Shown here piece after piece: positions 1-51,165 of a DNA stretch of 64,000 nt. Position 1 is the stretch's first letter; the number at the start of each line of letters is the position of its first letter. Origin of the DNA: an uncultured Acidobacteriota bacterium (GTDB taxonomy: Bacteria; Acidobacteriota; Thermoanaerobaculia; UBA5066; Gp7-AA6); NCBI GenBank assembly GCA_963805495.1, contig CAWDUQ010000002.1, positions 164,138-228,137 on the forward strand, written 5' to 3'. The notes under the pieces are model-generated. The model was not told the DNA's origin, did no database searches, and was given only the letters and a program-made list of their open reading frames with translations. Made by a program: the position numbers and the translations under genes.

Positions 1-370
1 GGTCGCGATCCGGCCAGCGCCCGCGGCACCAGCGGATCGAAGGCGCGTGGACGTCGAAGCCGATGTAGCGGCCGCCCGGGGGCAGGCGCCGGGCGAGTTC
101 CTCGACCATCGCCCCCGCGCCGCAGCCGATGTCGAGGACAGAGCGGGCACCCGCGAGGAGGCCGAGCCGGTCGATCAACGCCGCGGTCTCGCGGGCCGCG
201 CTCTCGAACGCGGACGGGGAGCCCGTGTGGCGCCGCAGCCACAGCGGCGGCAGATGCGGCCGTCCCGTGGCCCGAAGCCAGAGGCGGTCGAACGGGGTGG
301 CGATTCGGAAGGCCGCGGTGCGGAGCGCTCGCAGAATGACTGAAAATCCGGACCGTGCGTCGAGCCTCAT
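1..370 (-). CDS. Class I SAM-dependent methyltransferase. The 5' end is complete; the 3' end runs off the window.
   Basis: Minus-strand translation gives the motif VLDIGCGAGAMVEELARRLPPGGRYIGFDV (SAM-binding motif I). The ATG start overlaps the upstream gene's stop in an ATGA arrangement at 367-370. Confidence 0.6.
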   Translation of the reverse strand, partial: MRLDARSGFSVILRALRTAAFRIATPFDRLWLRATGRPHLPPLWLRRHTGSPSAFESAARETAALIDRLGLLAGARSVLDIGCGAGAMVEELARRLPPGGRYIGFDVHAPSIRWCRGRWPDRD

Positions 371-1647
371 GCGGCGGCCGGTGCGGGCGCGGCGCGACGC
401 CGGAGCACCAGCGCGGCCCCGGGGACGGCATAGAGGAGGAGCACGGGGTCCCAGTAGGCCGCGCGGTATCGCCAGCTCGTTTCGAATGCCAGGTGGAATG
501 CGAACGTCATTGCGAGAAACGCGAGGGCGAAGGCCCGCGCGCCCCGCCGGTCCGCCCGTGCCAGGCCGATCGCGGCGGCGAGGTACAGGAGCGTGAAATA
601 CAGGCCGAGCCCGACGACGGCCTCGCGCCGCCAGAACCTCGGGTCCGGATAGGGCCGAAGCCAGTCGCGGGCCTTCCATGCGATCAGCCGCGCCGACGCG
701 GCCGGCGGCCCCGCCAGTCTCTCGGCCAGGGCCTCGGCCATGAGGGCGCGCGACAGCCGGCCGGGCGACTCGCGGACCTCCGTCGGCAGCGCCGAGATGA
801 ACTCGATCCGGCGGCGCTCGAGCTCGTCCGCGGCCGCGGCGAGCTCTGCGCGGGTCTCGGCGGCGGCGAGCCCGAGAGCCGCGTCGGAGTTGCGTCCGTA
901 GAAGACGTACCCGGCGCCGTCGTTGACGAGGATGAGCTCCCCGAAGGCGAGCGCATTGCGAACGACCCAGGGCAGGAGCGCGAGGCCGAACCCCAGGAGG
1001 GCGGAGAGGGCGACGTGGGCGCCGGCGCGACGCGGGTAGCGCCGATCGAAGAGGGGAGCGAGGAGGAGCGGCGCGAGGACGAGCGCCGAGGAGCGCGTCA
1101 ATGCCGCCAGCGCGAGGAGGACGCCGGCGCACAGCGCCAGGTTCGAGGAGGGGCGGTCGGCGGCCGCGAGCAGGACGTAGCCGGACGAGAGGAGCAACAC
1201 GAGAAAGAGGGGCTCGGACTGAATGTCGGCGGAGGCGAGGACGAGAGTCGGATGGAGGGCCGCGATCGCGCCGGTCACGACGGCGAGGCCACGCCGGCGA
1301 AAGAGGCGGGCCGAGAGGGCGGCGAGGAGCACGGCGGACAGGGCGCCGGCGACCGCGCCCCCGACCTTGGCGGCGGCGATCCGCTCGGGCCGGCCGAGCG
1401 TGACGGCGGCGAGAAAGACGGCGTAGCCGGGGGGCCGGAAGAGGAAGGCATCGGTCCGCCGCGGATAGTGGCCCGTCTCGACGAGGGCCCGGGCGCCGAA
1501 GAGGTAGGAGGGTGCGTCGGCGAACCGCGGGGTCGAAAAGCCGACGGCCGCCGCGGCCGCGAGGCGGGCCGCGAGGGCGAGGAGAAAGATCGCCGCGCAG
1601 GCGCGGCTGCCGAGCCGGGGAATTGCCGGGGGACTACCCGAGATCAA
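367..1647 (-). CDS. GT39/ArnT-like (PMT_2 family) integral-membrane glycosyltransferase
   Basis: 426-aa ORF with about 10 hydrophobic helices and an Ala/Leu-rich membrane topology typical of undecaprenyl/dolichyl-phosphate-sugar dependent GT-C enzymes. The start appears to be TTG. It overlaps the E2 gene's end by 14 nt. Confidence 0.55.
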   Translation of the reverse strand: MISGSPPAIPRLGSRACAAIFLLALAARLAAAAAVGFSTPRFADAPSYLFGARALVETGHYPRRTDAFLFRPPGYAVFLAAVTLGRPERIAAAKVGGAVAGALSAVLLAALSARLFRRRGLAVVTGAIAALHPTLVLASADIQSEPLFLVLLLSSGYVLLAAADRPSSNLALCAGVLLALAALTRSSALVLAPLLLAPLFDRRYPRRAGAHVALSALLGFGLALLPWVVRNALAFGELILVNDGAGYVFYGRNSDAALGLAAAETRAELAAAADELERRRIEFISALPTEVRESPGRLSRALMAEALAERLAGPPAASARLIAWKARDWLRPYPDPRFWRREAVVGLGLYFTLLYLAAAIGLARADRRGARAFALAFLAMTFAFHLAFETSWRYRAAYWDPVLLLYAVPGAALVLRRRAAPAPAAA

Positions 1648-3020
1648 ACTCTCCCGTCTCGAGCGTCGTCTTGATCGCCGCCATGAACCGGTCGGCGTCG
1701 GCTCCGTCGATCAGCCGGTGGTCGAACGAGAGGGCGAGGTACCCGACCGTGCGGATGCCGAGCGCGTCCTGCCCGTCCTCGTCGGTCACCACGACGGGCC
1801 GCTTCTCGATGGTTCCCACGCCGAGGATCGCGACCTGGGGCTGGGGAATGATCGGCGTTCCAAAGAGCCCGCCGTAGACCCCGGGATTCGTGACGCTGAA
1901 GGTCCCGCCCTGGATCTCCTCGGGCCTCAACCGCTTGGTGCGCGCCCGCTCGGCGAGGTCCTGCGAAGACCGCGCGAGGCCCAGGATCGACTTCTCGTCG
2001 GCGTTCTTGATCACGGGCACGATCAGTCCCCAGTCGAGCGCGACGGCCATGCCGAGGTTGACGTCCTTGTGGTAGACGATGTTCTCGCCGTCGATCGAGG
2101 CGTTGACCTGCGGGAACTGGCGGATCGCCTGGATCGCGGCCCGGAAGATGAACGGGAGATAGGTCAGCTTCACGCCGTTCTTGGCGAGGAAGTCGTCCTT
2201 GTGCCTGGCCCGGATCTTCGCGATGTTCGAGTAGTCGACCTGGAAGACGGTCGTCACGTGGGCCGAAGTCCTCTTGGAGAGCATCATGTTCTCGGCCGTG
2301 ATCCTGCGGATCTTCGTCATCGCGACGACCTCGTCGCGATCCGTCACGGAGATGGCGGGGCGGGGCGGCGCCGGAACCTCGACGGGCTCGGCGCGTCCGA
2401 GGGACGGGGCTTCCGCAGGAACGGCGGATCCGCGGATCGGCGCCTGGGCCACCTTGCGGTTCTCGAGGTAGGAGAGGACGTCGTTCTTCGTGACGCGGTT
2501 GTGAATGCCGGTCCCTTCGATGTCGCCGATGTCGAGCGAGTTCTCCTGGGCGATCTTGCGCACGAGCGGAGAGGACTTGCGGCGGATCCGCTCCTCGATC
2601 GACTCGACCTGTCCGCCCGCGGACGGCTCGATCCGGGGGGCCGGGACCGGTGCCGGTGCGGGCGCCGGCTTCGCCTCGGCCTTCGGGGCCGGCGCCGGTT
2701 CCGGGGCTTTCGGAGCGGCGGGCGGGGGCGCGGCCGGCGCGGGGGCCGGAGCGGCCGGCGACGGGGCGGAAGCCGCGGCCGATCCCGCCTCGCCGATGAC
2801 GGCGACGACGGTGTTGATGGCGACGGTCTGCCCTTCGGCGACCTTGATCTCGGTCAGCGTGCCGGCGACCGGGGAGGGGATCTCGGCGTCCACCTTGTCC
2901 GTCGAGATTTCGAAGATCGGCTCGTCGCGCTTGATGGTGTCGCCGACTTTCTTGAGCCACTTGGTGATGGTGCCTTCGGCGATGGACTCGCCCATCTGGG
3001 GCATGATGACCGGAGTCGAC
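1634..3020 (-). CDS. Dihydrolipoamide acyltransferase, the E2 component of a 2-oxoacid dehydrogenase complex
   Basis: N-terminal lipoyl domain (MPQMGESIAEGTITKW...ISTDKVDAEIPSP). Ala/Pro-rich linker. E3-binding domain. C-terminal catalytic domain ending DHRLIDGADADRF. The true start is the ATG at 3020 (MSTPVIMPQMGE), inside the longer ORF-track entry 1634..3457. Confidence 0.85.
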
Positions 3021-3183
3021 ATAGGGTGCTCTCCTCGTTGGCCCGGAGTCCGGGCGGGTTCGTCCCCGCCCGCGGGCTCGCCACGCCGAAGAATAGCATC
3101 CGTTCGCCGGGGGAAACAGGCGGTTGGCCGATTCGCAGCCGACAGTTGGGCCGCGGTCTCGTAGATTGGGGGGGAGGTCAAAC

Positions 3184-3967
3184 GATGAACGAAGCGCGAC
3201 GGTCCAACTTCACACCCCGCATCCTCGCGGGCCTCGTCCTGATCGCTCTGGGAATCGTCTTCACGCTCGACAGCTTCGGCGTGATCGACGCCGGATCCAT
3301 CGGCGACTACTGGCCGCTCTTCCTGATCATCCCGGGCTTCGCGAGCCTCGCCTGGCCGCGCAAGAACGCCGACCGGCTCTGGGGAGCCATCCTCGTCAGC
3401 GTCGGGACGCTGTTTCTTCTGCGCAATCTGGGCATTTTCTGGATCAGCTTCCGGCACGTCTGGCCGGTGGTGCTCGTCGCGGTCGGCGTCTATCTCATCT
3501 GGCGGGCGATCGATTCACGCCTCCCGCCAGGGGGCGGCGAGACCGATTCGGTTGGCTCTCGGGGGCACGACGGCGTGATGGCCGGCTTCGATGCAAGCCG
3601 CGATCTGCGCGCTCCGGCGTCTTCGGCGGGCGATCGCCTCGACGAGTTCGCCATGTTCGGGGGCGGGGACCGCACCATCCTGTCCCAGGCCTTCCGGGGC
3701 GGAAACGTCACGGCGATTCTCGGGGGCTTCGACATCGACATGCGGGACGCCGTGATGGCGGGCGACGCCGCCGCCATCGAAGTGTTCGTCATGATGGGAG
3801 GCATCGATCTCAAGGTCCCCGAGAGCTGGACGATCGTGATCGACGTGACGCCCTTCATGGGAGGGGCGAGCTACCGGCGGCGTGGCCAGGCGCCCGGGGA
3901 GGGCCCGCCGAAGGTCCTGACGGTTCGCGGCTTCGTGTTCATGGGCGGCGTCGAGATCAAGCACTGA
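3184..3967 (+). CDS. LiaF-like / DUF2154 putative cell-envelope stress membrane protein
   Basis: N-terminal multi-TM segment (ILAGLVLIALGIVFTLDSF..., LFLLRNLGIFWISF...) followed by a C-terminal beta-rich domain (FGGGDRTILSQAFRGGNVTAILGGFDIDMRDA...). Sits immediately upstream of a LytS/LytTR two-component pair. Confidence 0.5.
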
Positions 3968-7139: not shown

Positions 7140-7903
7140 TCTTGCACTCCTCCATCACGAGGGTCTGGTCCTTCTCGCCATTGGTCGAGACGTCCAGGCG
7201 GTGGGCGATCGGGAAGCCGTCGATGGGCCGGTAGTCGGAGTAGTCCGAGACCATCTGCGCGGACTTGCCGTCGGGAGTGGTCGTGGTGTGCTCGGTGCGC
7301 ACGATCCTTCCGGTCGCGGGCTCCACGAACCAGCGCACGGCGACCTCGCCGTATCGGATGTCGAGCAGGGCGGCATCGACGTCTCCGACTTTCGCTGTGC
7401 CGGCCGCGGCCGCCACGAGCCCCGGGTCGGAGGCCTTCTGGACGAGGTGCAGCGGGATGCGCTGGATCTGCTTGAGCAGCTCGGACCGGACGATGGGAGG
7501 CAGGTCCTGCGAGCCGTTCGCGGCGAAGAGAAAGGCCTCGCGCGGAGTCACGACCATGGCGATGCGGCCGTAGGGGGAGTCGATCTCCTGGTAGAGGTGG
7601 TCGGGAAACACCATGGCGCTCTGGACTTCCATGGTGGCGTCGCCCTCGGGAGTCTTCGCCGTGAGCTGGCCTTTTGTCTGGACGTCCCGCACGCCGGCGA
7701 CCTTCTTTTCGCCGCCGAGCCAGGCCACGACTTTCGCCATGAGCGCCTTGCCGGCCGCCTGCGCTTCGGCCGAGGGGGGGGCCGGGGTCGCGGCCTTCGG
7801 CGCGGGCGAGGGCGCCGGCGCGGCCTCCGGGGCCTGCCCGAGAGCGGACGCCGAAAGCGCGAGCGACAGGGCGGCCGCGCGGATGGCGCGAATCGTAGTC
7901 ATG
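7030..7903 (-). CDS. Secreted LolA-like / outer-membrane-lipoprotein-sorting-fold protein. The family assignment is tentative.
   Basis: The real start is MTTIRAIRAAALSLALSASALG (signal peptide) at 7903, inside the longer ORF 7030..8625. Pro/Ala/Thr-rich tails at both ends. No catalytic motif recognised. Confidence 0.4.
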
Positions 7904-7938
7904 GTTCCTCCGAGCGGCGGAGCATATATCGAAGTAGC

Positions 7939-9639
7939 ATGCGCGCCGTGCCGAGCCGAGCCGAAACGATCCTGCGCCGACTGGAAGAGGCCCGTCATCG
8001 ACGGCCCGGCGCGCGCGCGGCCGAGCGCGCGATCCGCTCGGCGCGCGGCCTCGCCGTGCGCGACGCGGACGGCCTCGTCCGGCTGCACGACGCGCTCTGT
8101 TTTCTCCGCGCGTATCCGCACAGCCGCCGCGTGCTCGACCTCGCCGAAGGTGCCCTCGCGACGATCGCGCGGCGCGTGGCCGCGCTGGAGGCGGCCGGCG
8201 AGGACCTCTCGCCGTTCGATGCCCCGGAGGTCGCCGGCATCGCGGGGACGACGATCGGCACCGACTTCTCTTTCGAGCTCGTCCGCTGGCTCTCGCGCCG
8301 CTTTCCGCGCCGCGTACGGCTCGCCTGGGACGCGGGGGGCTCGGAGGATCGCATGCGGACGGCATGGCCCGAGTTCGTGCCGCTGCTCGAGGAGGAGGCG
8401 CTCGCCGACGCCAACGTCCCGTACCTCGAATGGCTGGGCGCGGCGGCGGGGCGGCGCCGGGACGACCCGGCCTGGCTGCTCGACCGCTACGAGCGCCTGC
8501 CGGGGCCGCCGGAGGTCGCCGCCGATCGCTTCGATTCCCTCGAGGTCCCGATCACCTGGGAACTCGGGAACGGGAGCGCGTCCCGGACGCGGATGCGGCT
8601 GCCGGGGCCGCCGCCCTTCTTTCACGACGAACCGTTTCTCTCGCGGCGGGATGTCTCTCTCGACGCCGTGATGTCCGGGCCGCCTCTCGCGCTCCGGAAG
8701 CTCTCACGGCGGGAAGGGGAGCGTCTCTGCGACCGGGTGCGCGAGGCCACCACGGCCCGGTACCGCGAGTTCTACACGTTCACCCACGCCGACCCGACGT
8801 CGGTCCTCGCGGCGCGTCCCGGCCGCGGAGTCGAACTCTTCCTCGTCGGGGTGCGGCCCGAGCGGCGGCTTCCCCTGCGCTCGGCGTACGGCGGCTTCGT
8901 CGTCAAGAATGGCGTGCCGATCGGGTACATCGAGGGCCTCGCGTTCTTCGAGCGGCTGGAGATCGGCTTCAACATGTACTACACGTTCCGGGACGGCGAG
9001 TCGGCCTGGATCTACGCGCAGGTCCTGAAGCTCCACCGCGACGCCCTCGGCGTGACGTCGTTCTCGATCGACCCTTACCAGCTCGGCTACGAGAACGAGG
9101 AGGCGCTCGCGTCCGGGGCCTTCTGGTTCTACCGGAAGCTCGGTTTCCGGCCGACGAGCCGCGAGGCCCGGGCGCTCGTCGGGCGCGAGGAGGCCCGCAT
9201 CGCGCGGGACCCCGGCCATCGTTCCTCCCGCGCGACTTTGAATCGTCTCGTCCAGCGCAACCTGATCTACGACGCGCCCGGCACCGCGGTCGGTGCATGG
9301 GACCGCTTCCACGTCCGCCGCATCGGCCTTCAGATCAACCGCCGGATGCGCGAGCGGGGTCTCGACGCGGCGGGGCTGCGGGAGAAGGCGGCGGTCCGTG
9401 TCGCGCGCCGGCTCGGCCTCGCGCTTGGATCACTCCCAACCCGCGCCCGGCGCTTCTTCGGCGACTTCGCGCTGGCCCTCGATCTCGTTCCGGATCTCTC
9501 GCGCTGGACCGCCGCGGAGAGGACGGGCATAGCGGAGGTCGTCCGGGCCAAGGCCGGGCGGCACGAGAGGCGTTACCTGCGCCTCCTTCAGAGGCACGCG
9601 AGGCTCAGGGAGGCGCTGCTCCGTCTCGGTTCCGGCTGA
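7939..9639 (+). CDS. Hypothetical protein with a C-terminal GNAT-like (FemAB/CelD-type acetyltransferase fold) region
   Basis: 566-aa ORF starting MRAVPSRAETILRRLEE. The C-terminal part (GFVVKNGVPIGYIEGLAFFERLEIGFNMYY...AFWFYRKLGFRP) resembles BioF2/CelD-like GNAT folds. Family not firmly recognised. Confidence 0.35.
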   Translation: MRAVPSRAETILRRLEEARHRRPGARAAERAIRSARGLAVRDADGLVRLHDALCFLRAYPHSRRVLDLAEGALATIARRVAALEAAGEDLSPFDAPEVAGIAGTTIGTDFSFELVRWLSRRFPRRVRLAWDAGGSEDRMRTAWPEFVPLLEEEALADANVPYLEWLGAAAGRRRDDPAWLLDRYERLPGPPEVAADRFDSLEVPITWELGNGSASRTRMRLPGPPPFFHDEPFLSRRDVSLDAVMSGPPLALRKLSRREGERLCDRVREATTARYREFYTFTHADPTSVLAARPGRGVELFLVGVRPERRLPLRSAYGGFVVKNGVPIGYIEGLAFFERLEIGFNMYYTFRDGESAWIYAQVLKLHRDALGVTSFSIDPYQLGYENEEALASGAFWFYRKLGFRPTSREARALVGREEARIARDPGHRSSRATLNRLVQRNLIYDAPGTAVGAWDRFHVRRIGLQINRRMRERGLDAAGLREKAAVRVARRLGLALGSLPTRARRFFGDFALALDLVPDLSRWTAAERTGIAEVVRAKAGRHERRYLRLLQRHARLREALLRLGSG

Positions 9640-36233: not shown

Positions 36234-37256
36234 TCAGTACCCGGCGAGGGCCCTCGCCGCCTTGCAGACCTTCTCGGAGTTCGGGAGAAAGAACTCCTCG
36301 AGCGGAGGCGAATAGGGGACCGGGGTATCGGGCGCCGTGACGCGCACGAGCGGCCCGTCGAGATACTCGAAGCAGCGTTCCGAGAGCACGGCGGCGATCT
36401 CGGCGCCGATCCCCCCGGTGCGCGTGGCCTCGTGGAGCAGGATCGCCTTGTTGGTCCGGGCGACCGACTCGAGGATCGTCTGCTCGTCCAGGGGAAAGAG
36501 CGTCCGCAGGTCCACGACCTCGGCGTCGATGCCTTCGGCCTCCAGCGTTTTCGCGGCCTCGAGCGCCGTCCACACCATCGCGCCGTAGGTGATGATCGAG
36601 AGGTCGCGCCCGGCGCGGCGAACGGCCGCCTTCCCGATCGGGACGACGTAGTCTTCGGAGGGAAGCTCCTCCTTGATGCGCCGGTAGAGAAACTTGTGCT
36701 CGAAGAAGAGCACCGGGTCGTCGTCGCGGATCGCCGCCTTGATGAGCCCTTTGGCGTCGTAAGCCGTGGCCGGCTGCACGATCTTCAAGCCCGGCGTGTG
36801 TGCGAAGTAGGCCTCGGGATTCTGCGAGTGGAACGGACCGCCGTGGACGCCGCCGCCGGACGGGCCACGGATCACGAGGGGAACGCCGACGCCGGTGCGG
36901 TAGCGGGACTTGGCGGCGAAGTTCGTGATCATGTCGAAGGCGCAGGAGATGAAGTCGATGAACTGCATCTCGGCCACGGGACGCATCCCCATCATCGCGG
37001 CCCCGACCGCGGCGCCGACGATCGCCGTCTCCGCGATCGGCGTGTCGATGACCCGGTCCTCGCCGAACTCGCCGATGAGGCCGTCGGTGACCTTGAAGGC
37101 GCCGCCGTAGACGCCGATGTCCTCGCCCAGCAGGAATACCCGCTCGTCGCGGGCCATCTCCTCCCGGAGCCCTTCGCGAATCGCTTCGACGTAGGTGGTC
37201 TGGCCCTTGACGGCCGGGCCGCCGGCATCGCCACCGAAGTGGGGAGCGCTGCTCAC
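36234..37256 (-). CDS. 2-oxoacid (pyruvate/branched-chain/acetoin) dehydrogenase E1 component beta subunit
   Basis: [56 protein letters not shown]...: transketolase-like pyrimidine-binding and C-terminal domains. The GTG start overlaps the E1-alpha stop (GTGA). Confidence 0.85.
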
Positions 37257-38269
37257 GGCCGCCTCCGGGCGATCGATCCCGACGGCGACGGCGCGGCCGG
37301 GGCGGCGGGGCGGGCGTAGACGCCCTCCACCGCGAACTCCGGCGCCGGCAGGGGGCTCGCGTCGGCGCGCTCGACATCGCGGTCGACCTCTTCGGCGATC
37401 GCCTGGTCGATGGCGGCGAGCTCGTTCGGCGAGGCCGCACCCGATTCGACGAGGGCGGCCGAGTAGCGCGCGATCGGATCCTTCTGCTTCCACTCCTCGA
37501 GCTCCGCCTTCGGGACGTAGGCCTGCGCATCGTGCTCGGCGTGCCCCTTCATGCGGTAGGTCATGGCCTCGACGAGCGTCGGGCCTGCGCCCGAGCGCGC
37601 CCGATCGACCGCGCGCCGCGCCGCGGCGTAGACCGCGAGCACGTCGTTGCCGTCGACCTGCTCTCCCGGGATCCCGTAGGCGGCAGCCTTGTCGGCGAGG
37701 CAGCGCGCCGCGGTCTGTTTGCGGAAGGGGGTCGAGTACGCCCAGCCGTTGTTCTCGGCGATGACGACGAGCGGCAGATTCTGCACCGCGGCGAAGTTGA
37801 GGCCCTCGTGGAAGGCCCCGGTCGAGGTCCCCCCGTCGCCGATCCAGGTCATCGTGACCAGGTCCTTCTTCTGCATGCGCGCCGCGAGCGCGATCCCGGC
37901 CATGACCGGCACGAGGGCGCCGAGCATCGAGATGGGGGAGATGACACCGCGGTCGGGCCGCCCGAAATGGAGGTTGCAGTCCTTGCCGCCCGACGGCGAG
38001 GTGGCGCGGGCCATGTACTGGGTCATGACGTCCCGGGGCGTGTAACCCATGACGAGCACGACGCCGAGGTTGCGGATGAGCGGCCCGACGATGTCGCCTT
38101 TGCGCAGAGCGTAGGCCGTTCCGACGGACGTGGCCTCCTGGCCGAGCGAGCGGTAGAGGCCGCCGACGACCTTTCCCTGGCGGTAGAGGTTCACGAGCCG
38201 CTCCTCGACGACGCGGTTCAGCCGCATGAAGCGATAAAGCTCGAGCTTCTGTTCGCGGGTCAGGTCCAA
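37253..38269 (-). CDS. 2-oxoacid dehydrogenase E1 component alpha subunit (TPP-binding)
   Basis: MDLTREQKLELYRFMRLNRVVEERL...YRSLGQEATSVG...TWIGDGGTSTGAFHEGLNFAAV...IAENNGWAYSTP. This is the TPP motif GDG-(x)n-N. Confidence 0.85.
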   Translation of the reverse strand: MDLTREQKLELYRFMRLNRVVEERLVNLYRQGKVVGGLYRSLGQEATSVGTAYALRKGDIVGPLIRNLGVVLVMGYTPRDVMTQYMARATSPSGGKDCNLHFGRPDRGVISPISMLGALVPVMAGIALAARMQKKDLVTMTWIGDGGTSTGAFHEGLNFAAVQNLPLVVIAENNGWAYSTPFRKQTAARCLADKAAAYGIPGEQVDGNDVLAVYAAARRAVDRARSGAGPTLVEAMTYRMKGHAEHDAQAYVPKAELEEWKQKDPIARYSAALVESGAASPNELAAIDQAIAEEVDRDVERADASPLPAPEFAVEGVYARPAAPAAPSPSGSIARRRP

Positions 38270-38342
38270 GCAGGCTCCAGAAACCGGGAGTCTACACGAC
38301 GCGGATTCGCGCTCGGCGACGACCGGCGCTTATCATCGGGGC

Positions 38343-39311
38343 GTGGAGCCCGCCGTTTCCGTCCTCATCGCCTCCGACCGCGTCGGGACCCTCCTGCCGG
38401 ACTGCCTCCGCTCGCTCGACGCGCAGCGCGGCGGGCCCGAGTTCGAGGCCATCGTCTGCTCGGCGACGGCCCCCGCGATCGACGGGCTCACCTTCCCGGT
38501 CCGCTGGGTCCGGGCGGACGCCCCGAATCCGGCGCGGCGGCGCAACGCGGCCGCGAGAGAAGCCCGGGGGAGCGTCCTGGCGTTCCTCGACGACGACGCC
38601 ACGGCCGAGCCGGGCTGGCTCGCCGCAGGGGCCGCCGCCTGCGGCGGGGCCGACGTCGTCGGCGGGCCCGACCCGGGGCCCCGCGACGCGCCCTACGGGG
38701 AGCGGCTCTCGAACCTGCTGCTGGCGACGCCCGGCATCGGCAGCGGAGTCCCCGCGCACGAATGGAACCCGCGCGGGGGGCCGGTGCGATCGGCGCACGA
38801 CGTCGCGCTCTGCAACCTCTTCGTGCGGCGCGACCGGTTCGAGGCATTGAAGGGATTCGACGAATCCTTCGGCTACATCGGCGAGGACACCGACTTCGTC
38901 CGCCGGGCGCTCGACGGCGGGGCGAGGGTCATCCTCGACCCCTCGGTGCGCGTCCGGCACCGGCGGCGCGCGTTTCCCGGTCCCTACCTCGCACAGCGCT
39001 GGCGGTACCGCGTGAAGACCGGGAGGATGCTCGTCGAGAGGCCCGGGCTCCACGCGCGCGGACGCGTGGCCGCGTTCCTCTCCGGGGCGTTCGCGGTCTC
39101 GGCCGGCGGAGCGATGTGGGGGACGGGATTCCTGCTTCCCGCCGCCGCCGCCTACGCGCTCCTCGCGTGGGCCCTCTCGTTCCCGATCTGGCGCCGCGAC
39201 GTCGCGCTCTTTGCGGCCGTGCCGTTCGCGTTCGCGATCCACCACGCGACGTATCTCGCGGGCCTGCTGACGGGGATCGGGCGCGGGGTCCTCGGGGCGG
39301 CGGCTCGATGA
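38343..39311 (+). CDS. Family 2 glycosyltransferase with a C-terminal membrane-spanning region
   Basis: VSVLIASDRVGTLLPDCLRSLDAQ...VLAFLDDDATAEPGWL (GT-A fold, DxD-like DDD motif). The C-terminus has 3-4 hydrophobic helices. Divergent from E1 alpha. Confidence 0.7.
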   Translation: MEPAVSVLIASDRVGTLLPDCLRSLDAQRGGPEFEAIVCSATAPAIDGLTFPVRWVRADAPNPARRRNAAAREARGSVLAFLDDDATAEPGWLAAGAAACGGADVVGGPDPGPRDAPYGERLSNLLLATPGIGSGVPAHEWNPRGGPVRSAHDVALCNLFVRRDRFEALKGFDESFGYIGEDTDFVRRALDGGARVILDPSVRVRHRRRAFPGPYLAQRWRYRVKTGRMLVERPGLHARGRVAAFLSGAFAVSAGGAMWGTGFLLPAAAAYALLAWALSFPIWRRDVALFAAVPFAFAIHHATYLAGLLTGIGRGVLGAAAR

Positions 39312-40381
39312 ACTCCCTCGAGCTGGCCGCGCACTGGCTGCGGGGGCGGGAGACGCTGCCCCGCTACCTCATCCTCGGAATGACGAACCTCTGCAACTCC
39401 AAGTGCGTGACCTGTTTCTACTGGGACCACCTGAACGTGAACCGCCACCTGGAGATGAGGCTCGAGGAGTACGACCGGGCCCTGTCGGACCTCGGGGCGC
39501 TCTACTCGGTGGTCCTGACGGGCGGGGAGCCGACGTTGAACCGCGAGCTGCCCGAGATCACGAGGCTCCTGTACCGGCGCCACGACGCGTCGAACGTGAC
39601 GATGCCGACCAACTCGATCATCCCCGAGCAGGTCGAGTCGATCGTGGCGCGGGTGCTCGAGTCGCGCCGGGACGAGCGCCAGACCTTCACCGTCGGTCTT
39701 TCGCTGGATCACCTGGGCGAGCGGCACGATTTCATCCGCGGCGCGCCCGGCAATTTCGTGAAGCTCGAGGAGACCTACCGGCGGCTCGCGGCCCTGAAGC
39801 GCCGGTCCCGGGGCTTCACGCTCAACGTGCAGACGGTCCTGGCGTCGTTCAACATGAACGAACTCGGCGAGATCACGACCTGGGTCTCGGCCAACCTGCC
39901 GGAGATCAACTTCCATTCCTTCGAGCTCCTTCGGCCGCCGTTTCCGGACCCCTCGATCCGGGCGCTCACGCCCGCCGAGTACGCCGAAGCCCTCCGGTTT
40001 CTCCGGCCCTACTGGTCGAAGTTCGGCAACTACAACCCGGTCCTGCGCAATCTCAAGGTCGGCGCCCGGACGGCCGAGCTCGAGACGCTCGAGCAGGAGC
40101 GCATGGTTTATCCCTGCTACGCGGGCACGATCTCGGGCGTCCTCAACCCCGAGGGCACGGTCTCGCTCTGCGAAGTGCAGTGGGAGATCGGCAACATCCG
40201 GGATTTCGACTACTCCTTCAAAAAGGCCTGGTTCTCGGAGAAGGCCGTCGCCATGCGGCGGCGGATTGCCAATCGTGAATGCTGGTGCACGCATTCCTGC
40301 TTCATGACGTCCTCCCTGCCGTTCTCCGTCTCCGGCGCGGCGCACCTCGTCAAGTCGGCGGTGCTTCCGGGAGCGAGATGA
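39308..40381 (+). CDS. Radical SAM enzyme with a C-terminal SPASM/twitch-like Cys-rich domain
   Basis: CNSKCVTCFYW (CxxxCxxC) and TGGEPTL. C-terminal cysteines: CYAGTISGVLNPEGTVSLCE ... CWCTHSCF. The ATG overlaps the GT2 stop (ATGA). Confidence 0.75.
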   Translation: MNSLELAAHWLRGRETLPRYLILGMTNLCNSKCVTCFYWDHLNVNRHLEMRLEEYDRALSDLGALYSVVLTGGEPTLNRELPEITRLLYRRHDASNVTMPTNSIIPEQVESIVARVLESRRDERQTFTVGLSLDHLGERHDFIRGAPGNFVKLEETYRRLAALKRRSRGFTLNVQTVLASFNMNELGEITTWVSANLPEINFHSFELLRPPFPDPSIRALTPAEYAEALRFLRPYWSKFGNYNPVLRNLKVGARTAELETLEQERMVYPCYAGTISGVLNPEGTVSLCEVQWEIGNIRDFDYSFKKAWFSEKAVAMRRRIANRECWCTHSCFMTSSLPFSVSGAAHLVKSAVLPGAR

Positions 40382-40402
40382 GGACGGCGGATCGGCGCCC
40401 GA

Positions 40403-41203
40403 CTAGGCGCGAAGGACGAGCAACCGGTCCTCGACCCGCGCGACGCCCGCGGCGCGGCGGGCGGCTTCGAGCGCCTGGGCTCTTTCGAGGTCCGTGTCGA
40501 CAACTCCCGACAGAGTGACGACTCCCCGGCGTGTCGTGACCTGGACACGGCCGCTGGGAACCGCTTCCTCGACCCTCGCGTGGACGTCGACGGAGATCGC
40601 GGCATCCTCCTCCGACATCGTCGCCGGGAAACCGGAGGCCGGGGCCGGCAGGAGCATGTCGGGCCCGGCCGCCGCCGGGGCCTCGCCGATCGAACCGTCG
40701 ACTTCGGGCGCGGGCTCGATTCCCGCGGCGGCGCGCCACTCGGCCGCCGGGGCCGGCGGGGCGAGCTCGACTTCAGCCGTTCCGGCTGGAACGAGTTCCG
40801 GCGCGCGGTCCGGAACGGCGGCCTCCCCTGCCGCCGCGGGCGCCGGCTCGAGGCGCGGGAAGGGCAGCGCGGCCCGCACGGCCCGCGGCACGACGACAGG
40901 GGCTTCGGCCGGCAGCCCGACGGGGGGCATCCGGAGGCGGTCGACGACCTGGACGACACTGGACGCCCGGCGAACGATCTCGAGGACGCGGCGGTGCGCG
41001 ACCTCGTCCGGGACTTCTCCCTCGAGAGTGACGACCCCCGCGCTCGTCGTGACGCTCAGATCGCGGGTCCGGACGATCGGATCGCTCTCCATCATCGAGA
41101 GGACGCGCTCGGTGATCGCCGCATCCCGCCGGCCGGATCCCGAACAGCCGGTGGCCATTGCCAGAAGAAGGAGGGGCAGGGGAAGAAGCGTCGCACGTTT
41201 CAT
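40403..41203 (-). CDS. Lipoprotein with two BON domains
   Basis: Lipobox [11 protein letters not shown]. Two BON-like segments: [35 protein letters not shown] and [36 protein letters not shown]. Confidence 0.65.
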
Positions 41204-49433: not shown

Positions 49434-49464
49434 CGCGCTGATGAGCCGGCGCGGATAAGATCGC

Positions 49465-51165
49465 GTGCCGATCATGGGAAAGGTGCGCTTCGGAATCGAC
49501 GTCCTTCTCGAAAGCCCCTGGCCTGTGGCCGGGCGGCGAATCGGGCTGATCACCAATGGCTCCGGGATGACCTCGGCGGGCGTGCCGACCTGGAAGGCGC
49601 TGCGCGCGGCCCAGAACGTCCGGCTCGTGCGCCTCTTCGGGCCCGAGCACGGTCTCGAGGGCGGCGCCGTCTACATGGAGGCCGTCGGCTCGGCGATCCA
49701 TCCGCCCTCGGGCCTTCCGGTCGTATCGCTCTACGGGGCGACGGCCGAAGACCTGAAGCCCAGGCGAGAGGACTTCGCCGACCTCGAAGCGATCGTCTTC
49801 GACGTGGCGGACGTGGGCAGCCGGTACTACACGTACATCTGGACGATGCTCCTCGCGATGGAAGCCTGTGCGGGCTCGCGGCTGCGCTTCGTCGTGTGCG
49901 ACCGGCCGAATCCGATCGGCGGAGCCGTCGAGGGCGCGCCCCAGGCCACGGGGTACCTGACCTTCGTCGGTCTTCACCCGATCCCGGTGCGCCACGGCAT
50001 GACCGCCGGCGAGCTCGCGCGCCTCTTTGCCGCCGAGCGGCGGCTCGATCTCGACCTCGTCGTCTGTCCGGCCGCGGGGTGGGCGCGCGGGACGCCGTAC
50101 GGGGAGACCGGGCTGCCGTGGGTGGCGCCGTCGCCGAACATGCCGACGACCGACACGGCCCTGGTGTATCCGGGGATGTGCCTGCTCGAGGGAACGAACC
50201 TCTCCGAGGGCCGGGGAACGACGCGCCCGTTCGAGGTCTTCGGCGCGCCGTGGCTCGAACCGATTGCGGTCGCGGAGGCGCTCAACGCGCTGGCGCTGCC
50301 CGGGGTCCAGTTCCTGCCCCACAAGTTCCGGCCCATGTTCGACAAGCATGCCGGCCAGGTCTGCGGAGGCGCGCAGATCCACCTGACCGACCGTTCCGCC
50401 TTCCGACCGTTCCAGACCGGGCTGCGCCTGGTCGAGACGGTCCGGCGAATGGGCCCGATCGACTTCCGGTGGAGGACGGAGCGCTACGAATACGACGATC
50501 GCCCCGCGATCGACCTGCTGACCGGATCCGAACGATTTCGCGAGATCGTCGAGCGCAACGGCAACCTGCGGGCCGAGATCGCCCGCCACTTCGACGCCGC
50601 GCAGCCGTTCGTCGCGCGCCGGGAGCCGTTCCTGCTCTACCCGGACCGCAAGCCCGCGGTGGTCGCGTTCGTGGGAGGCCACGATTCGGGCAAGACGTCG
50701 ATCATCGTCGAAGTGCTGCCGCGCCTGAAGGCGCGGGGTCTCTCGGTCGGGACGGTGAAGCACACGACCAAGGACGCCGAGGATGACGTGCCGGGTAAGG
50801 ACTCGCATCGCCATGCGGGGTCAGGCGCCGCGGCCGGGGCGTTCGTGACGCCGCGGCGGACGACCGTGAGGCGCTTCGGCGAGGAGGAAGCCCTCGAGCA
50901 GGTCCTCCGTCGCGACTTCGCCGGCTGCGACCTGGTCCTCGTCGAGGGGTACAAGTCCCTGCCGATTCCGAAAATCGAGGTCGTGCGGACGGGGGTCGCG
51001 CGGCCCGACGTCGTCGAGCCCGCGTTGAGGATCTCGGACGGGCCGTTTGCCGGGTCGGTGCCGACGCTCTCCTTCGGCGACTGGGACGCCATCGCGTCGG
51101 CGGTGGTGCGGCTGGCGGGGCTCGACCGGACGGAATCGACGGTCGGCGCGCGGAAAACCGGTTGA
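49465..51165 (+). CDS. Apparent fusion protein: a DUF1343 (NamZ-like exo-beta-N-acetylmuramidase family) domain followed by a MobB (molybdopterin-guanine dinucleotide biosynthesis protein B) P-loop domain
   Basis: Residues 1-395 contain RIGLITNGSGMTSAG...YGATAEDLKP...FDVADVGSRYYTYIWTM...PNMPTTDTALVYPGMCLLEGTNLSEGRGTTRPFE, which is DUF1343. Residues 400-566 contain VAFVGGHDSGKTSIIVEVL (Walker A)...LVLVEGYKSLPIPKIEV, which is MobB. A single ORF with no stop between the two parts. Confidence 0.65.
   Translation: MPIMGKVRFGIDVLLESPWPVAGRRIGLITNGSGMTSAGVPTWKALRAAQNVRLVRLFGPEHGLEGGAVYMEAVGSAIHPPSGLPVVSLYGATAEDLKPRREDFADLEAIVFDVADVGSRYYTYIWTMLLAMEACAGSRLRFVVCDRPNPIGGAVEGAPQATGYLTFVGLHPIPVRHGMTAGELARLFAAERRLDLDLVVCPAAGWARGTPYGETGLPWVAPSPNMPTTDTALVYPGMCLLEGTNLSEGRGTTRPFEVFGAPWLEPIAVAEALNALALPGVQFLPHKFRPMFDKHAGQVCGGAQIHLTDRSAFRPFQTGLRLVETVRRMGPIDFRWRTERYEYDDRPAIDLLTGSERFREIVERNGNLRAEIARHFDAAQPFVARREPFLLYPDRKPAVVAFVGGHDSGKTSIIVEVLPRLKARGLSVGTVKHTTKDAEDDVPGKDSHRHAGSGAAAGAFVTPRRTTVRRFGEEEALEQVLRRDFAGCDLVLVEGYKSLPIPKIEVVRTGVARPDVVEPALRISDGPFAGSVPTLSFGDWDAIASAVVRLAGLDRTESTVGARKTG

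What the first reader, a model, noticed from the sequence alone, without database searches (positions are those of the whole stretch)
38343..40381. Translationally coupled GT2 glycosyltransferase and radical-SAM/SPASM enzyme: a candidate uncharacterised glycan or peptide modification pair
The GT2 gene encodes a GT-A catalytic domain followed by a C-terminal multi-TM region. It ends in an ATGA overlap with a radical SAM protein (CNSKCVTC) that has a Cys-rich SPASM/twitch-like tail holding at least two auxiliary clusters. SPASM enzymes typically modify peptides (RiPP maturases) or complex cofactors. Here no precursor-peptide ORF is obvious nearby. A membrane GT plus a SPASM enzyme instead suggests radical chemistry on a lipid-linked sugar or polysaccharide, for example C-methylation, epimerisation or dehydration. 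The pair sits next to a BON-domain lipoprotein. The combination is not a named system as far as I can tell.
Basis: partly seen in the sequence, partly recalled or inferred. Interest (0 to 1): 0.6.

Follow-up and report, generated by a model that had tools for sequence, protein, structure and literature searches.

The report
Glycosyltransferase paired with radical SAM enzyme
A membrane-anchored sugar-adding enzyme and an iron-sulfur radical enzyme are encoded as an overlapping gene pair that recurs, sometimes fused into one protein, across many uncultured bacteria and archaea, which points to an undescribed way of chemically altering a membrane-bound sugar.

Summary
A GT2 gene (38343-39311, +) and a radical SAM gene (39308-40381, +) overlap in an ATGA. 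One detail is wrong: the radical SAM tail has only five Cys (270, 288, 325, 327, 331). That is a twitch-like domain able to hold one auxiliary cluster, not two.

The window comes from a Thermoanaerobaculia (Acidobacteriota) genome. The radical SAM belongs to a large family: 574 50%-identity clusters at E<=1e-30. The family occurs in DPANN and other archaea, CPR bacteria, Omnitrophota and Acidobacteriota. No member tested approaches any NCBIfam cut-off.

The pairing is conserved. A GT2 or GT4 gene lies within 1.5 kb on the same strand in 57 of 84 loci. At least 11 fusion proteins join this radical SAM to a GT2 or WecG domain. There is no precursor peptide, RRE domain or sulfatase.

The GT2 resembles the minimal cellulose-synthase-like membrane enzyme PcManGT. 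Some lineages carry compact rSAM-GT2-PMT_2 (GT-C) operons, and a PMT_2 gene is linked in Thermoanaerobaculia.

Best reading: the GT2 puts a sugar on a membrane-bound acceptor, and the twitch radical SAM then tailors that sugar, probably by oxidation or epimerisation. The exact chemistry is inferred, not shown. This is an uncharacterised variant of a known logic (BlsD/BlsE, HpnI/HpnJ, the proposed GT-then-Cds route).

The parts
38270..38342 (.). 73-bp divergent intergenic region between the 2-oxoacid dehydrogenase E1-alpha start and the GT2 start. It presumably holds back-to-back promoters.
   Evidence: ORF coordinates are. The same divergent E1-alpha | GT2 layout, with gaps of 31-91 bp, occurs in L001, L086, L087, L088 and the JGI contig. 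There is no sigma-70 consensus match, no Rfam match and no free small ORF.
38343..39311 (+). GT2 glycosyltransferase, 322 aa: a GT-A catalytic domain followed by a C-terminal helical membrane region.
   Evidence: PF00535 and PF13632 are above gathering scores. The AF2 model has pLDDT 86.6. The best fold match is the membrane mannosyltransferase PcManGT, 6yv7 (E 8.5e-12). A profile of partner GT2s matches 6yv7 over positions 4-289 and BcsA over 1-293.
38589..38597 (+). DDD (D83-D85), the DxD metal and nucleotide-sugar motif of the GT2.
   Evidence: Read from the sequence. D83 and D85 are at least 90% conserved in partner GT2s. The upstream 'VVDDxSxD' motif is replaced by IVCSATAP in this clade.
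39057..39305 (+). C-terminal hydrophobic helices of the GT2 (residues 239-321), with a conserved ...AFAxHHATY... motif.
   Evidence: AF2 predicts helices 239-259, 261-283 and 287-321. Hydropathy peaks are near residues 251, 265-274 and 296-304. The motif is shared with the GT2s of L039, L040 and L042.
39308..39311 (+). ATGA overlap: the radical SAM start codon overlaps the GT2 stop codon (translational coupling).
   Evidence: Read from the sequence. The same 4-nt overlap occurs in L001, L003, L007, L019 and L053, and other short overlaps occur in L002, L025, L028, L033 and L034.
39308..40381 (+). Radical SAM enzyme, 357 aa, with a twitch-like (truncated SPASM) C-terminal domain.
   Evidence: PF04055 and PF13186. 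AF2 pLDDT is 92.8. Foldseek neighbours are anSME, BlsE, SkfB, SuiB, CteB, MoaA, DesII, EpeE, SpeY and BtrN, with TM about 0.5-0.68. No NCBIfam family is reached.
39392..39415 (+). CX3CX2C (C29, C33, C36), the site of the radical SAM [4Fe-4S] cluster.
   Evidence: Read from the sequence. Invariant in 40 relatives.
40115..40300 (+). Auxiliary-cluster Cys set: C270-X12-G283-X4-C288 ... C325-X-C327-X3-C331.
   Evidence: C270, G283, C288, C325 and C327 are invariant, and C331 is mostly conserved. The same pattern is present in 11 of 12 fusion proteins; P0239 lacks the fifth Cys. The BtrN twitch domain aligns to profile positions 266-343.
370..1710 (-). PMT_2-type GT-C glycosyltransferase, a possible distal third component. 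The link is inferred and it is not adjacent here.
   Evidence: PF13231 scores 37.1 bits against a cut-off of 26.1. It lies directly after E2 (1637-3514). In the JGI relative the order LplA<-PMT_2<-E2<-E1beta<-E1alpha | GT2->rSAM is contiguous. rSAM->GT2->PMT_2 operons occur in L023, L038 and L077.

Best explanation
This is a two-gene operon for a glycosyltransferase-coupled radical tailoring step on a membrane-bound sugar.

Proposed mechanism:
1. The GT2 is a minimal cellulose-synthase-like GT-A enzyme held at the membrane by C-terminal helices. It transfers a sugar from a nucleotide sugar to a membrane-embedded acceptor at the cytoplasmic face. The acceptor would be a polyprenyl-phosphate carrier, a lipid-linked glycan or a membrane lipid.
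2. The co-translated radical SAM enzyme cleaves SAM at its CX3CX2C cluster. The 5'-deoxyadenosyl radical abstracts a hydrogen from that sugar.
3. The single Cys-ligated auxiliary cluster of the twitch domain takes or returns the electron. The outcome is an oxygen-independent oxidation to a keto-sugar, or an epimerisation or rearrangement that proceeds from it.
4. In some lineages, and possibly here, the modified lipid-linked sugar is then used outside the cytoplasmic membrane by a PMT_2-type GT-C transferase.

Shown: the gene pair, the overlap, the domain content, the one-cluster Cys count, conservation of the pairing, the fusions, and the lack of any named family.

Inferred: the identity of the acceptor, that the radical SAM acts on the GT2 product, the type of chemistry, and the link to the GT-C.

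My rough odds:
- About 0.7 that the radical SAM tailors a glycoside made or used by its partner GT.
- About 0.4 that the substrate is lipid-linked.
- About 0.25 that the reaction is a dehydrogenation or epimerisation.
For: Coupling:
- The ATGA overlap.
- The same overlap in all six loci of the window's clade.

Conservation across large distances:
- GT2 on the same strand within 300 bp in 38 of 84 loci, and within 1.5 kb in 52 of 84.
- GT2 or GT4 within 1.5 kb in 57 of 84 loci.
- L002 carries two GT2->rSAM pairs.

Rosetta-stone fusions:
- GT2-rSAM: P0125, P0172, P0178, P0182, P0188, P0196, P0241, P0266.
- rSAM-GT2: P0230, P0245.
- rSAM-WecG: P0149.
- In four GT2-rSAM fusions two hydrophobic helices separate the domains. 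Both domains are therefore on the same side and tethered to the membrane.

Glycan context of relatives:
- GT4, SAM methyltransferases, B12 radical SAMs, Wzx, LPG_synthase_TM, DegT and an epimerase.
- rSAM->GT2->PMT_2 operons in a Woesearchaeote, a Saccharibacterium and a third MAG.
- PMT_2 linked in Thermoanaerobaculia.

GT2 fold:
- PcManGT and BcsA match over nearly the full length.

Radical SAM:
- High-confidence model.
- Its nearest solved folds include the sugar- or cyclitol-acting BlsE, DesII, SpeY and BtrN, and the dehydrogenase anSME.
- Five C-terminal Cys give one auxiliary cluster.
Against: - No biochemical or genetic data exist for any family member.
- 27 of 84 loci show no adjacent GT. 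One Bryobacterales subgroup instead has rSAM->NUDIX, so the family is not uniformly GT-coupled.
- The nearest solved structures also include peptide-modifying enzymes (anSME, SkfB, SuiB, CteB), and all TM-scores are only about 0.5-0.68.
- A PMT_2-like GT-C was found in only 4 of 84 loci. In this window it lies 36 kb away.
- No flippase gene is next to the pair.
- The GT2 clade lacks the first conserved Asp motif of GT2 enzymes, so its donor binding may be atypical.
- The profile matches to polyprenyl-phosphate GT2s (DPMS, ArnC, GtrB) cover only the N-terminal half.
Confidence: 0.55

Rival explanations
1. Head-group remodelling of a membrane glycolipid. The GT2 glycosylates a membrane lipid directly. 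The radical SAM then contracts or rearranges the sugar ring into a carbocyclic pseudo-sugar or an ether-linked head group. Precedents are calditol synthase Cds, which is proposed to act after a glucosyltransferase, and HpnI/HpnK/HpnJ acting on bacteriohopanetetrol.
For: - The proposed GT -> radical SAM -> second GT order for calditol (PMC9385802; PMC13459092) mirrors the GT2-rSAM-GT4 order in L040.
- Pyrinomonadaceae partners are GT21-like (ceramide glucosyltransferase-like) GT2s.
- LPG_synthase_TM plus GT2 plus B12 radical SAM genes in L002 and L003 recall hpnL/hpnI/hpnJ (the hpn comparison is from my own knowledge).
Against: - The family is common in CPR and DPANN organisms, which are generally thought not to make their own lipids (my own knowledge).
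- HpnJ-type enzymes carry a B12-binding domain that is absent here.
- HpnH and Tes models score far below their cut-offs.
- Homology to Cds could not be tested.
Confidence: 0.15
2. A RiPP or peptide system. The radical SAM is a peptide maturase that forms thioether, epimer or cross-link modifications. The GT2 glycosylates the same peptide, as SunS-type GT2s do for glycocins.
For: - SPASM/twitch enzymes are often peptide maturases.
- The profile and fold neighbours include SkfB, CteB, SuiB, PqqE and EpeE.
- The GT2 profile weakly matches SunS.
Against: - No free small ORF flanks the pair.
- The radical SAM motif starts at residue 29, so there is no room for an N-terminal RRE domain, and no PqqD-like Pfam hit was found.
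- The flanking genes are housekeeping genes and the pair is syntenic in all six loci of the window's clade.
- Relatives sit in glycan clusters, not with proteases or transporters of RiPP type.
- The fusions are to membrane GT2s and to WecG.
Confidence: 0.07
3. A protein maturase. The radical SAM is an anSME-like enzyme that oxidises a residue of a target protein (perhaps the GT2 itself or a secreted enzyme), and the GT2 has a separate role.
For: anSME is the best Foldseek match (E 3.5e-11) and aligns over almost the whole profile (positions 21-322).
Against: - anSME has the full seven-Cys SPASM motif with two auxiliary clusters, whereas this protein has five Cys.
- No sulfatase gene is near the pair.
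- TM is only 0.59 and sequence identity about 20%.
- Recurrent fusion to GT domains is not explained.
Confidence: 0.05
4. A glycosylated small-molecule cofactor or metabolite pathway, mycofactocin-like or nucleoside-antibiotic-like. The radical SAM makes or alters a soluble aglycone or glycoside, as BlsE decarboxylates the product of BlsD, and the GT2 glycosylates it.
For: - The best NCBIfam hit of the GT2 is MftF (E 2.8e-22).
- BlsE gives the highest target-normalised TM (0.68) and the best PDB sequence hit.
Against: - The MftF score of 79 bits is far below its cut-off of 280.
- No mftA-E-like genes lie next to the pair in any locus examined.
- The GT2 is membrane-anchored, and the fusions tether the radical SAM to the membrane.
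Confidence: 0.06
5. Incidental adjacency: two unrelated enzymes that merely share an operon in this lineage.
For: All window-clade loci are closely related (rSAM 78-92% identical), so synteny within that clade alone proves little.
Against: Pairing recurs at about 30% identity across phyla and domains. The two enzymes are also fused in at least 11 independent protein clusters.
Confidence: 0.02

Closest known systems
BlsD/BlsE (blasticidin S): a glycosyltransferase makes cytosylglucuronic acid, and the radical SAM BlsE decarboxylates the sugar
   Same: A GT product is tailored on the sugar by a radical SAM of about 360 aa. BlsE is the best PDB sequence hit (E 2.5e-6) and has the highest target-normalised TM (0.68).
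   Different: The BlsE substrate is a soluble nucleoside. Sequence identity is about 15%. The match covers mainly the core barrel. No membrane GT2 is involved (pathway details are from my own knowledge).
BtrN and SpeY: twitch radical SAM dehydrogenases acting on aminocyclitols or inositols
   Same: One auxiliary cluster is held by a CX17C...CxxC-type set. The BtrN twitch domain aligns to profile positions 266-343. Both appear among the fold hits.
   Different: BtrN is about 250 aa and soluble, and acts on a free cyclitol. The match is weak (E about 1e-4 to 1e-5). It is not GT-fused.
anSME (anaerobic sulfatase-maturating enzyme)
   Same: It is the best overall fold match and a full-length profile match. 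Neither protein has an N-terminal RRE. It performs a two-electron oxidation through auxiliary clusters.
   Different: anSME has seven SPASM Cys and two auxiliary clusters, and its substrate is a protein. This protein has five Cys and no sulfatase partner.
HpnI/HpnK/HpnJ (hopanoid cyclitol ether), and Cds (calditol synthase) with the glucosyltransferases proposed to act before and after it
   Same: The logic is GT first, then a radical SAM that remodels the lipid-bound sugar (PMC13459092; PMC9385802). The GT2-rSAM-GT4 order in L040 parallels the proposed GT-Cds-GT order.
   Different: HpnJ has a B12-binding domain, which is absent here. HpnH scores 34.6 bits against a cut-off of 225. Homology to Cds was not testable. 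No hopanoid or GDGT genes are nearby.
Three-component extracytoplasmic glycosylation: a polyprenyl-phosphate sugar synthase, a flippase and a GT-C, with auxiliary epimerases acting on the lipid-linked sugar (Gtr, Arn, DprE1/E2-Emb, GT136 systems)
   Same: A membrane GT2 plus a tailoring enzyme plus a PMT_2-type GT-C occur in one operon in L023, L038 and L077 and are linked in Thermoanaerobaculia. The concept is described in PMC11127046.
   Different: The tailoring enzyme here is a radical SAM, not a flavoenzyme/SDR epimerase or a deformylase. No flippase was identified. The GT2 resembles PcManGT/BcsA more than GtrB/ArnC/DPMS. The GT-C is present in only a few loci.
MftC/MftF (mycofactocin)
   Same: A SPASM-family radical SAM and a membrane GT2 belong to one system. 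MftF is the best NCBIfam hit of the GT2.
   Different: MftF scores 79 bits against a cut-off of 280. MftC acts on the peptide MftA with the help of MftB. No such genes are present here. The best E-value of any of 40 family members to the MftC model is 5.9e-21.
PcManGT (PDB 6yv7), a crenarchaeal membrane GT2 with a minimal cellulose-synthase-like fold
   Same: It is the best fold match of the GT2, and the partner-GT2 profile matches it nearly full-length (E 8.8e-32).
   Different: Identity is about 20% and TM is 0.54. The window GT2 lacks the first Asp motif. PcManGT is not known to have a radical SAM partner (my own knowledge).

Membership tests
Radical SAM superfamily (PF04055) | CX3CX2C cluster motif and a GGE SAM-binding motif in a partial TIM barrel | tested here: met
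   C29/C33/C36 and G72-G73-E74 are invariant in 40 relatives. PF04055 scores 46.1 bits against a cut-off of 29.5. The AF2 model has alternating beta/alpha elements.
SPASM domain (PF13186) | Pfam score at or above the gathering threshold | tested here: met
   26.5 bits against 21.5, residues 270-328.
SPASM domain (full, two auxiliary clusters) | Seven-Cys motif CX9-15GX4C - gap - CX2CX5CX3C - gap - C | tested here: not met
   Only C270, C288, C325, C327 and C331 lie downstream of the core. The pattern is CX12GX4C ... CXCX3C.
Twitch subclass (BtrN, MoaA, SkfB type) | A truncated SPASM fold with Cys ligands for a single auxiliary cluster | tested here: met
   Four invariant Cys plus one mostly conserved Cys. 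The BtrN twitch domain aligns to positions 266-343, and MoaA and SkfB are among the top profile hits. Cluster occupancy itself is not testable here.
RiPP radical SAM maturases | An RRE (PqqD-like) domain, fused or adjacent | tested here: not met
   The radical SAM motif begins at residue 29. The only Pfam hits are PF04055, PF13186 and PF13353. The neighbours are E1-alpha and BON.
RiPP radical SAM maturases | An adjacent precursor peptide gene | tested here: not met
   No free ORF of at least 20 aa lies in the 73-bp and 21-bp intergenic gaps. All small ORFs overlap the two genes.
Anaerobic sulfatase-maturating enzymes | Full SPASM with two auxiliary clusters, and a sulfatase partner | tested here: not met
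   Five Cys only. No sulfatase gene is found in six syntenic loci. Fold TM is 0.59.
Mycofactocin system (MftF TIGR03965, MftC TIGR03962) | Scores above the NCBIfam cut-offs, and mftA-E neighbours | tested here: not met
   MftF scores 79.2 bits against 280. The best E-value to MftC among 40 family members is 5.9e-21. No mft genes appear in the neighbourhoods.
Hopanoid side-chain enzymes (HpnH TIGR03470; HpnJ) | HpnH score above cut-off; for HpnJ a B12-binding domain | tested here: not met
   HpnH scores 34.6 bits against 225. There is no PF02310 hit in the window protein.
Tetraether synthase Tes / GDGT-MAS (NF045702) | Score above the NCBIfam cut-off | tested here: not met
   37.9 bits against 450. 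The PDB 7tol match covers the core only.
Calditol synthase Cds | Sequence homology to Saci_1489 | not tested
Only the pathway logic could be compared.
Glycosyltransferase family 2, GT-A fold | Pfam GT2 models above cut-off, a DxD motif and a GT-A fold | tested here: met
   PF00535 and PF13632. DDD at residues 83-85 and ED at 181-182. The fold hits are all GT-A GT2 enzymes. The first 'DD' motif is missing.
Polyprenyl-phosphate GT2s (GtrB, ArnC, DPMS) | Full-length similarity, including the juxtamembrane and TM region | tested here: inconclusive
   Profile matches to DPMS 5mlz (positions 4-168), ArnC (4-134) and GtrB (5-120) cover only the N-terminal half. PcManGT and BcsA match to about position 290.
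Three-component lipid-linked sugar / GT-C systems | A lipid-linked sugar synthase, a flippase and a GT-C encoded together | tested here: inconclusive
   PMT_2 GT-C genes lie in one operon with the rSAM-GT2 pair in L023, L038 and L077. One is 4.4 kb away in the JGI relative and 36 kb away in the window. Only 4 of 84 loci are positive. No flippase was found next to the window pair.
Anti-phage defence systems (PADLOC) | A match to a defence-system protein model | tested here: not met
   The GT2 has no hit. The radical SAM has only weak core similarity to pVip (34.8 bits).

The most novel reading that the evidence does not exclude
The pair is the core of a widespread, undescribed route in which a twitch radical SAM enzyme oxidises or epimerises a sugar while it is carried on a polyprenyl-phosphate (or other membrane) anchor. 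The route would need no oxygen. The altered sugar would then be handed to GT-C transferases outside the cytoplasmic membrane. This would be a radical counterpart of DprE1/E2-type tailoring of lipid-linked sugars, shared by DPANN archaea, CPR bacteria, Omnitrophota and Acidobacteriota. It would imply envelope sugars in these uncultured lineages that no nucleotide-sugar pathway makes.
Probability: 0.2. Interest if true: 0.8.

Novelty: new variant of a known kind. Interest (0 to 1): 0.55.

Why it matters
Radical SAM enzymes that tailor sugars are known one by one, mostly from antibiotic pathways and two lipid head-group pathways. Here a single uncharacterised family is physically tied to glycosyltransferases by overlap, operon or fusion. 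It has 574 clusters at 50% identity and 557 confirmed hits in species-representative genomes. Its hosts are lineages whose cell envelopes are almost unknown: CPR, DPANN, Omnitrophota and many Acidobacteriota.

If the inferred function is right, the family marks loci that make non-standard envelope sugars. It would also give enzymologists a compact two-protein (or one-protein fusion) system in which the GT supplies the radical enzyme's substrate. The natural fusions are obvious first targets for expression. For genome annotation, it would replace thousands of 'radical SAM protein' and 'MoaA/NifB/PqqE/SkfB family' labels.

Tried and rejected
- The search for related loci with the broad alignments A1 and A2 failed because no conserved stretch was found. 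A narrower alignment, A3, worked. Its patterns do not match the window's own clade, so that clade was traced through exact-protein look-ups instead.
- Four literature searches found no description of a GT-coupled SPASM/twitch radical SAM family. A fifth, combining radical SAM with lipid-linked, glycosyltransferase and polyprenyl, added none either.
- The calditol synthase paper is not held, so homology to Cds remains untested.
- A link between the radical SAM and 2-oxoacid dehydrogenase E1 looked promising. The Bryobacterales locus L082 also has the radical SAM divergent from a fused E1-alpha-beta gene. It occurred in only 1 of 80 scanned loci, so I treat it as chance or lineage synteny.
- 'Small proteins' upstream of the radical SAM in L004 and the Bryobacterales loci have no Pfam hit. 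The two I translated (L082, L004) are low-complexity Arg/Ser/Ala-rich, as expected of spurious frames in high-GC DNA. I rejected them as candidate substrates.
- The BON lipoprotein is rejected as part of the system because its adjacency is not conserved.
- No sigma-70-like promoter was found, and the only terminator-like site lies inside the radical SAM gene at chance frequency. There is no Rfam family. The repeats found are chance-level, apart from the internal BON duplication.


Full report
**1. What is in the sequence**

The frame starting with GTG at 38343 runs to a TGA at 39309-39311 and encodes 322 aa. An ATG at 39308 opens a 357-aa frame that ends at 40381. The two genes therefore overlap in ATGA.

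The first protein reaches Pfam gathering scores for PF00535 and PF13632. The second reaches them for PF04055 and for the SPASM model PF13186, at 26.5 bits against 21.5.

The upstream neighbour (37253-38269, -) is a 2-oxoacid dehydrogenase E1-alpha, transcribed divergently across a 73-bp gap. The downstream neighbour (40403-41203, -) is a convergent two-BON-domain protein whose stop lies 21 bp from the radical SAM stop.

Neither gap can hold a peptide gene, and every small ORF in the region overlaps the two genes in another frame. There is no Rfam match and no sigma-70-type promoter consensus. The repeats are chance-level, apart from the internal duplication of the BON gene.

**2. One detail of the finding is wrong**

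The radical SAM protein has eight Cys in all: C29, C33 and C36 (CX3CX2C), plus C270, C288, C325, C327 and C331. In an alignment of 40 relatives at 29-79% identity, the invariant Cys are C29, C33, C36, C270, C288, C325 and C327. G283 is also invariant, which gives CX12GX4C ... CXC(X3C).

That is the first half of the SPASM motif plus a short second half. It can ligate one auxiliary [4Fe-4S], as in twitch enzymes, and cannot ligate two.

A profile of the family aligns the BtrN twitch domain to positions 266-343. It matches MoaA and SkfB, both twitch enzymes, among its best solved relatives.

**3. Organism and local synteny**

The closest proteins (71-92% identical over more than 70% of the query) come from Thermoanaerobaculia MAGs and carry only generic names.

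In five related contigs the same GT2->rSAM pair with a 4-bp overlap lies divergent from E1-alpha/E1-beta.

BON is not a stable neighbour. L086 and L087 have one or two genes (a beta-elimination lyase, plus a lipocalin-like gene in L086) between the radical SAM and BON. L088 and the JGI contig have no BON gene there. The BON gene should be dropped from the system.

**4. Size and status of the radical SAM family**

A search of 1.84 billion cluster representatives gave 574 full-length relatives at E<=1e-30. A pattern scan of species-representative genomes confirmed 557 relatives. The best 80 come from:
- Woesearchaeota, Iainarchaeota, Aenigmatarchaeota, Nanoarchaeota and Undinarchaeota
- Bathyarchaeia and Methanosarcinales
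- several CPR groups and Omnitrophota
- many Acidobacteriota (Bryobacterales, Pyrinomonadaceae/Blastocatellia, Thermoanaerobaculia, Terriglobia)
- Planctomycetes, Gemmatimonadota, Anaeromyxobacter, Spirochaetes and others

All 80 are MAGs.

The window protein's best NCBIfam hit is 59 bits against a cut-off of 170. When 40 diverse members were scanned, no model did better than E = 5e-26. PADLOC gives only weak core similarity to viperins. The literature searches found no description of such a family.

**5. The pairing is conserved**

I used my own HMMs on six-frame ORFs of 84 loci. A GT2 lies on the same strand within 300 bp of the radical SAM in 38 loci and within 1.5 kb in 52. A GT2 or GT4 lies within 1.5 kb in 57. 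Several loci are cut by contig ends, so these are lower bounds.

- The GT2 is usually immediately upstream, often overlapping.
- In some lineages it is immediately downstream: L021, L023, L029, L038, L077.
- In one Bryobacterales group the order is rSAM-methyltransferase-GT2.
- A distant relative (L002, 31% identity) has two GT2->rSAM pairs in one cluster.

The two activities are also fused in single polypeptides, which is the strongest evidence:
- GT2-rSAM: P0125, P0172, P0178, P0182, P0188, P0196, P0241, P0266
- rSAM-GT2: P0230, P0245
- rSAM-WecG/TagA: P0149

All fusions keep CX17C followed by CXC, and all but P0239 also keep the final X3C Cys. In P0125, P0172, P0182 and P0239 two hydrophobic helices lie between the domains. 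Both domains are therefore on the same side of the membrane and tethered to it.

**6. Exceptions**

In 27 of 84 loci no GT was found nearby. Some of these loci are truncated.

A Bryobacterales subgroup (L032, L050, L057, L064, L072, L080, L082) has rSAM->NUDIX instead. The family is therefore not uniformly GT-coupled, and subfamilies may differ in substrate.

**7. The GT2**

AF2 gives a confident GT-A domain followed by an interface helix and three long helices (pLDDT 86.6). The best fold match is the crenarchaeal membrane mannosyltransferase PcManGT, 6yv7.

A profile of 24 partner GT2s matches PcManGT over positions 4-289 and bacterial cellulose synthase BcsA over 1-293. By contrast, DPMS, ArnC and GtrB match only the N-terminal half.

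The window clade keeps DDD (83-85), ED (181-182) and H206. It has lost the first 'VVDDxSxD' motif, reading IVCSATAP instead.

A second Thermoanaerobaculia clade has a GT2 with the same C-terminal ...AFAxHHATY... motif. Its rSAM is 41-47% identical and its GT2 43-46% identical to the window proteins. It sits in a larger cluster, <-GT2 | GT2-rSAM-GT4-second SPASM rSAM.

**8. The radical SAM fold**

AF2 gives pLDDT 92.8. Foldseek against the PDB finds, in order:
- anSME (E 3.5e-11, TM 0.59)
- BlsE (TM 0.63 on the query, 0.68 on the target)
- SkfB, SuiB, CteB, MoaA, viperin, DesII, PqqE, EpeE, SpeY and BtrN

No solved structure is close. The neighbours are split between sugar- or cyclitol-acting enzymes and peptide- or protein-acting ones.

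The radical SAM motif sits at residue 29, so there is no N-terminal RRE domain.

**9. Wider context**

Genes that recur in the 84 loci:

| Gene type | Loci |
|---|---|
| GT4 | 24 |
| Second SPASM radical SAM | 21 |
| B12-binding radical SAM | 19 |
| SAM methyltransferase | 15 |
| LPG_synthase_TM | 5 |
| Wzx-type flippase | 4 |

L003 also has DegT and an SDR epimerase. This is glycan or glycolipid biosynthetic company.

Three unrelated lineages have compact operons:
- rSAM->GT2->PMT_2->PMT_2 in L023 (Woesearchaeota)
- B12-rSAM->rSAM->GT2->GT2->PMT_2->PMT_2 in L038 (Saccharibacteria)
- rSAM->GT2->PMT/PMT_2 in L077

L002 also has a PMT_2.

In the JGI Thermoanaerobaculia contig the order is LplA<-PMT_2<-E2<-E1beta<-E1alpha | GT2->rSAM. 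In the window the same PMT_2 (370-1710) still follows E2 (1637-3514) but lies 36 kb from the pair.

PMT_2 enzymes are GT-C transferases that use polyprenyl-phosphate sugars as donors (established knowledge of the family). However, my GT-C HMM found them in only 4 of 84 loci.

**10. Mechanism**

Shown:
- a translationally coupled membrane GT2 and a one-auxiliary-cluster twitch radical SAM
- an evolutionarily conserved and sometimes covalent association of this radical SAM family with GTs
- glycan-type genomic company
- absence of peptide-system hallmarks

Inferred:
- The GT2 installs a sugar on a membrane-bound acceptor.
- The radical SAM abstracts a hydrogen from that sugar.
- The auxiliary cluster mediates electron transfer, giving a keto-sugar or an epimer or rearrangement derived from it.
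- In some lineages a GT-C then uses the product outside the membrane, by analogy with systems in which lipid-linked sugars are tailored before GT-C transfer (PMC11127046).

A close alternative is direct remodelling of a glycolipid head group. Cds is proposed to act after a glucosyltransferase and before a second one (PMC9385802; PMC13459092), which parallels GT2-rSAM-GT4 in L040.

**11. Verdict**

The finding is real and its main interpretation stands. It is an uncharacterised variant of a known logic (a GT plus a sugar-tailoring radical SAM), not a new category.

Its value lies in the breadth of the family, the natural fusions and its presence in lineages with unknown envelopes. The chemistry and substrate remain open.

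Noticed in passing
window 10696-32052: A 21.4-kb segment with lower G+C (0.62-0.66, against 0.68-0.74 in the flanks) lies between xdhC and coxM, which abut in the close relatives L086, L087 and L088. It carries a TonB-dependent-receptor-like protein, a Ser/Thr kinase with TPR repeats, an ECF sigma factor, a 2057-aa LRR/Vgb-lyase-repeat protein, a DUF7948 protein and an SLH-domain protein. It looks like an inserted island.
   Followed up: partly
window 370-1710 (-) and 1637-3514 (-): A PMT_2-type GT-C glycosyltransferase lies directly downstream of a 2-oxoacid dehydrogenase E2. The same E2->PMT_2 order occurs in a JGI relative, where it is contiguous with E1-alpha/beta and a lipoate ligase. A GT-C inside a dehydrogenase operon is unusual.
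   Followed up: partly
window 49459-51162 (+): NamZ_N, NamZ_C (exo-beta-N-acetylmuramidase) and MobB domains lie in one reading frame. The same 578-aa product is called as a single gene in L088, so this seems to be a real NamZ-MobB fusion.
   Followed up: no
L040 5620-11205: A second Thermoanaerobaculia clade has a larger cluster: a divergent 459-aa GT2, then GT2 (327 aa) - rSAM - GT4 - a second, 314-aa SPASM radical SAM. Whether genomes of the window's clade also carry this cluster is unknown.
   Followed up: partly
L032, L050, L057, L064, L072, L080, L082 (about 7550-9550 in L082): A Bryobacterales subgroup of the family has no adjacent GT but a conserved downstream NUDIX hydrolase. It also has a conserved stretch of about 370 nt upstream; the L082 copy translates to a low-complexity, probably spurious ORF, so the stretch may be a leader or a gene on the other strand.
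   Followed up: partly
L082 5433-7532 (-): In this Bryobacterales MAG the radical SAM is divergent from a fused E1-alpha-beta 2-oxoacid dehydrogenase, echoing the window's layout. It was the only such case in 80 scanned loci, so it may be chance.
   Followed up: yes
L002 5716-12685; L003 2676-9086: Distant relatives carry two GT2->rSAM pairs (L002), or three tandem B12-binding radical SAM genes upstream of the pair (L003). These sit with LPG_synthase_TM, methyltransferases and an AsnB-like amidotransferase, forming dense radical-enzyme glycan clusters.
   Followed up: no
window 38343-39311, residues 36-44: The GT2 of this clade and of the sister Thermoanaerobaculia clade lacks the first conserved Asp motif of GT2 enzymes (IVCSATAP instead of VVDDxSxD). 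It keeps the DxD and ED motifs.
   Followed up: partly
window 40371-40400, compared with L086 12070-13750: Relative to L086 and L087 the window lacks about 1.3-1.7 kb (a lipocalin-like gene in L086 and a beta-elimination lyase in both) between the radical SAM and BON. As a result the two stop codons are only 21 bp apart here.
   Followed up: yes
window 6991-9636 (+): A long high-GC3 reading frame (882 codons stop to stop) has no Pfam match. Relatives L086 and L087 call a 566-569-aa gene without Pfam hits at the matching place.
   Followed up: no
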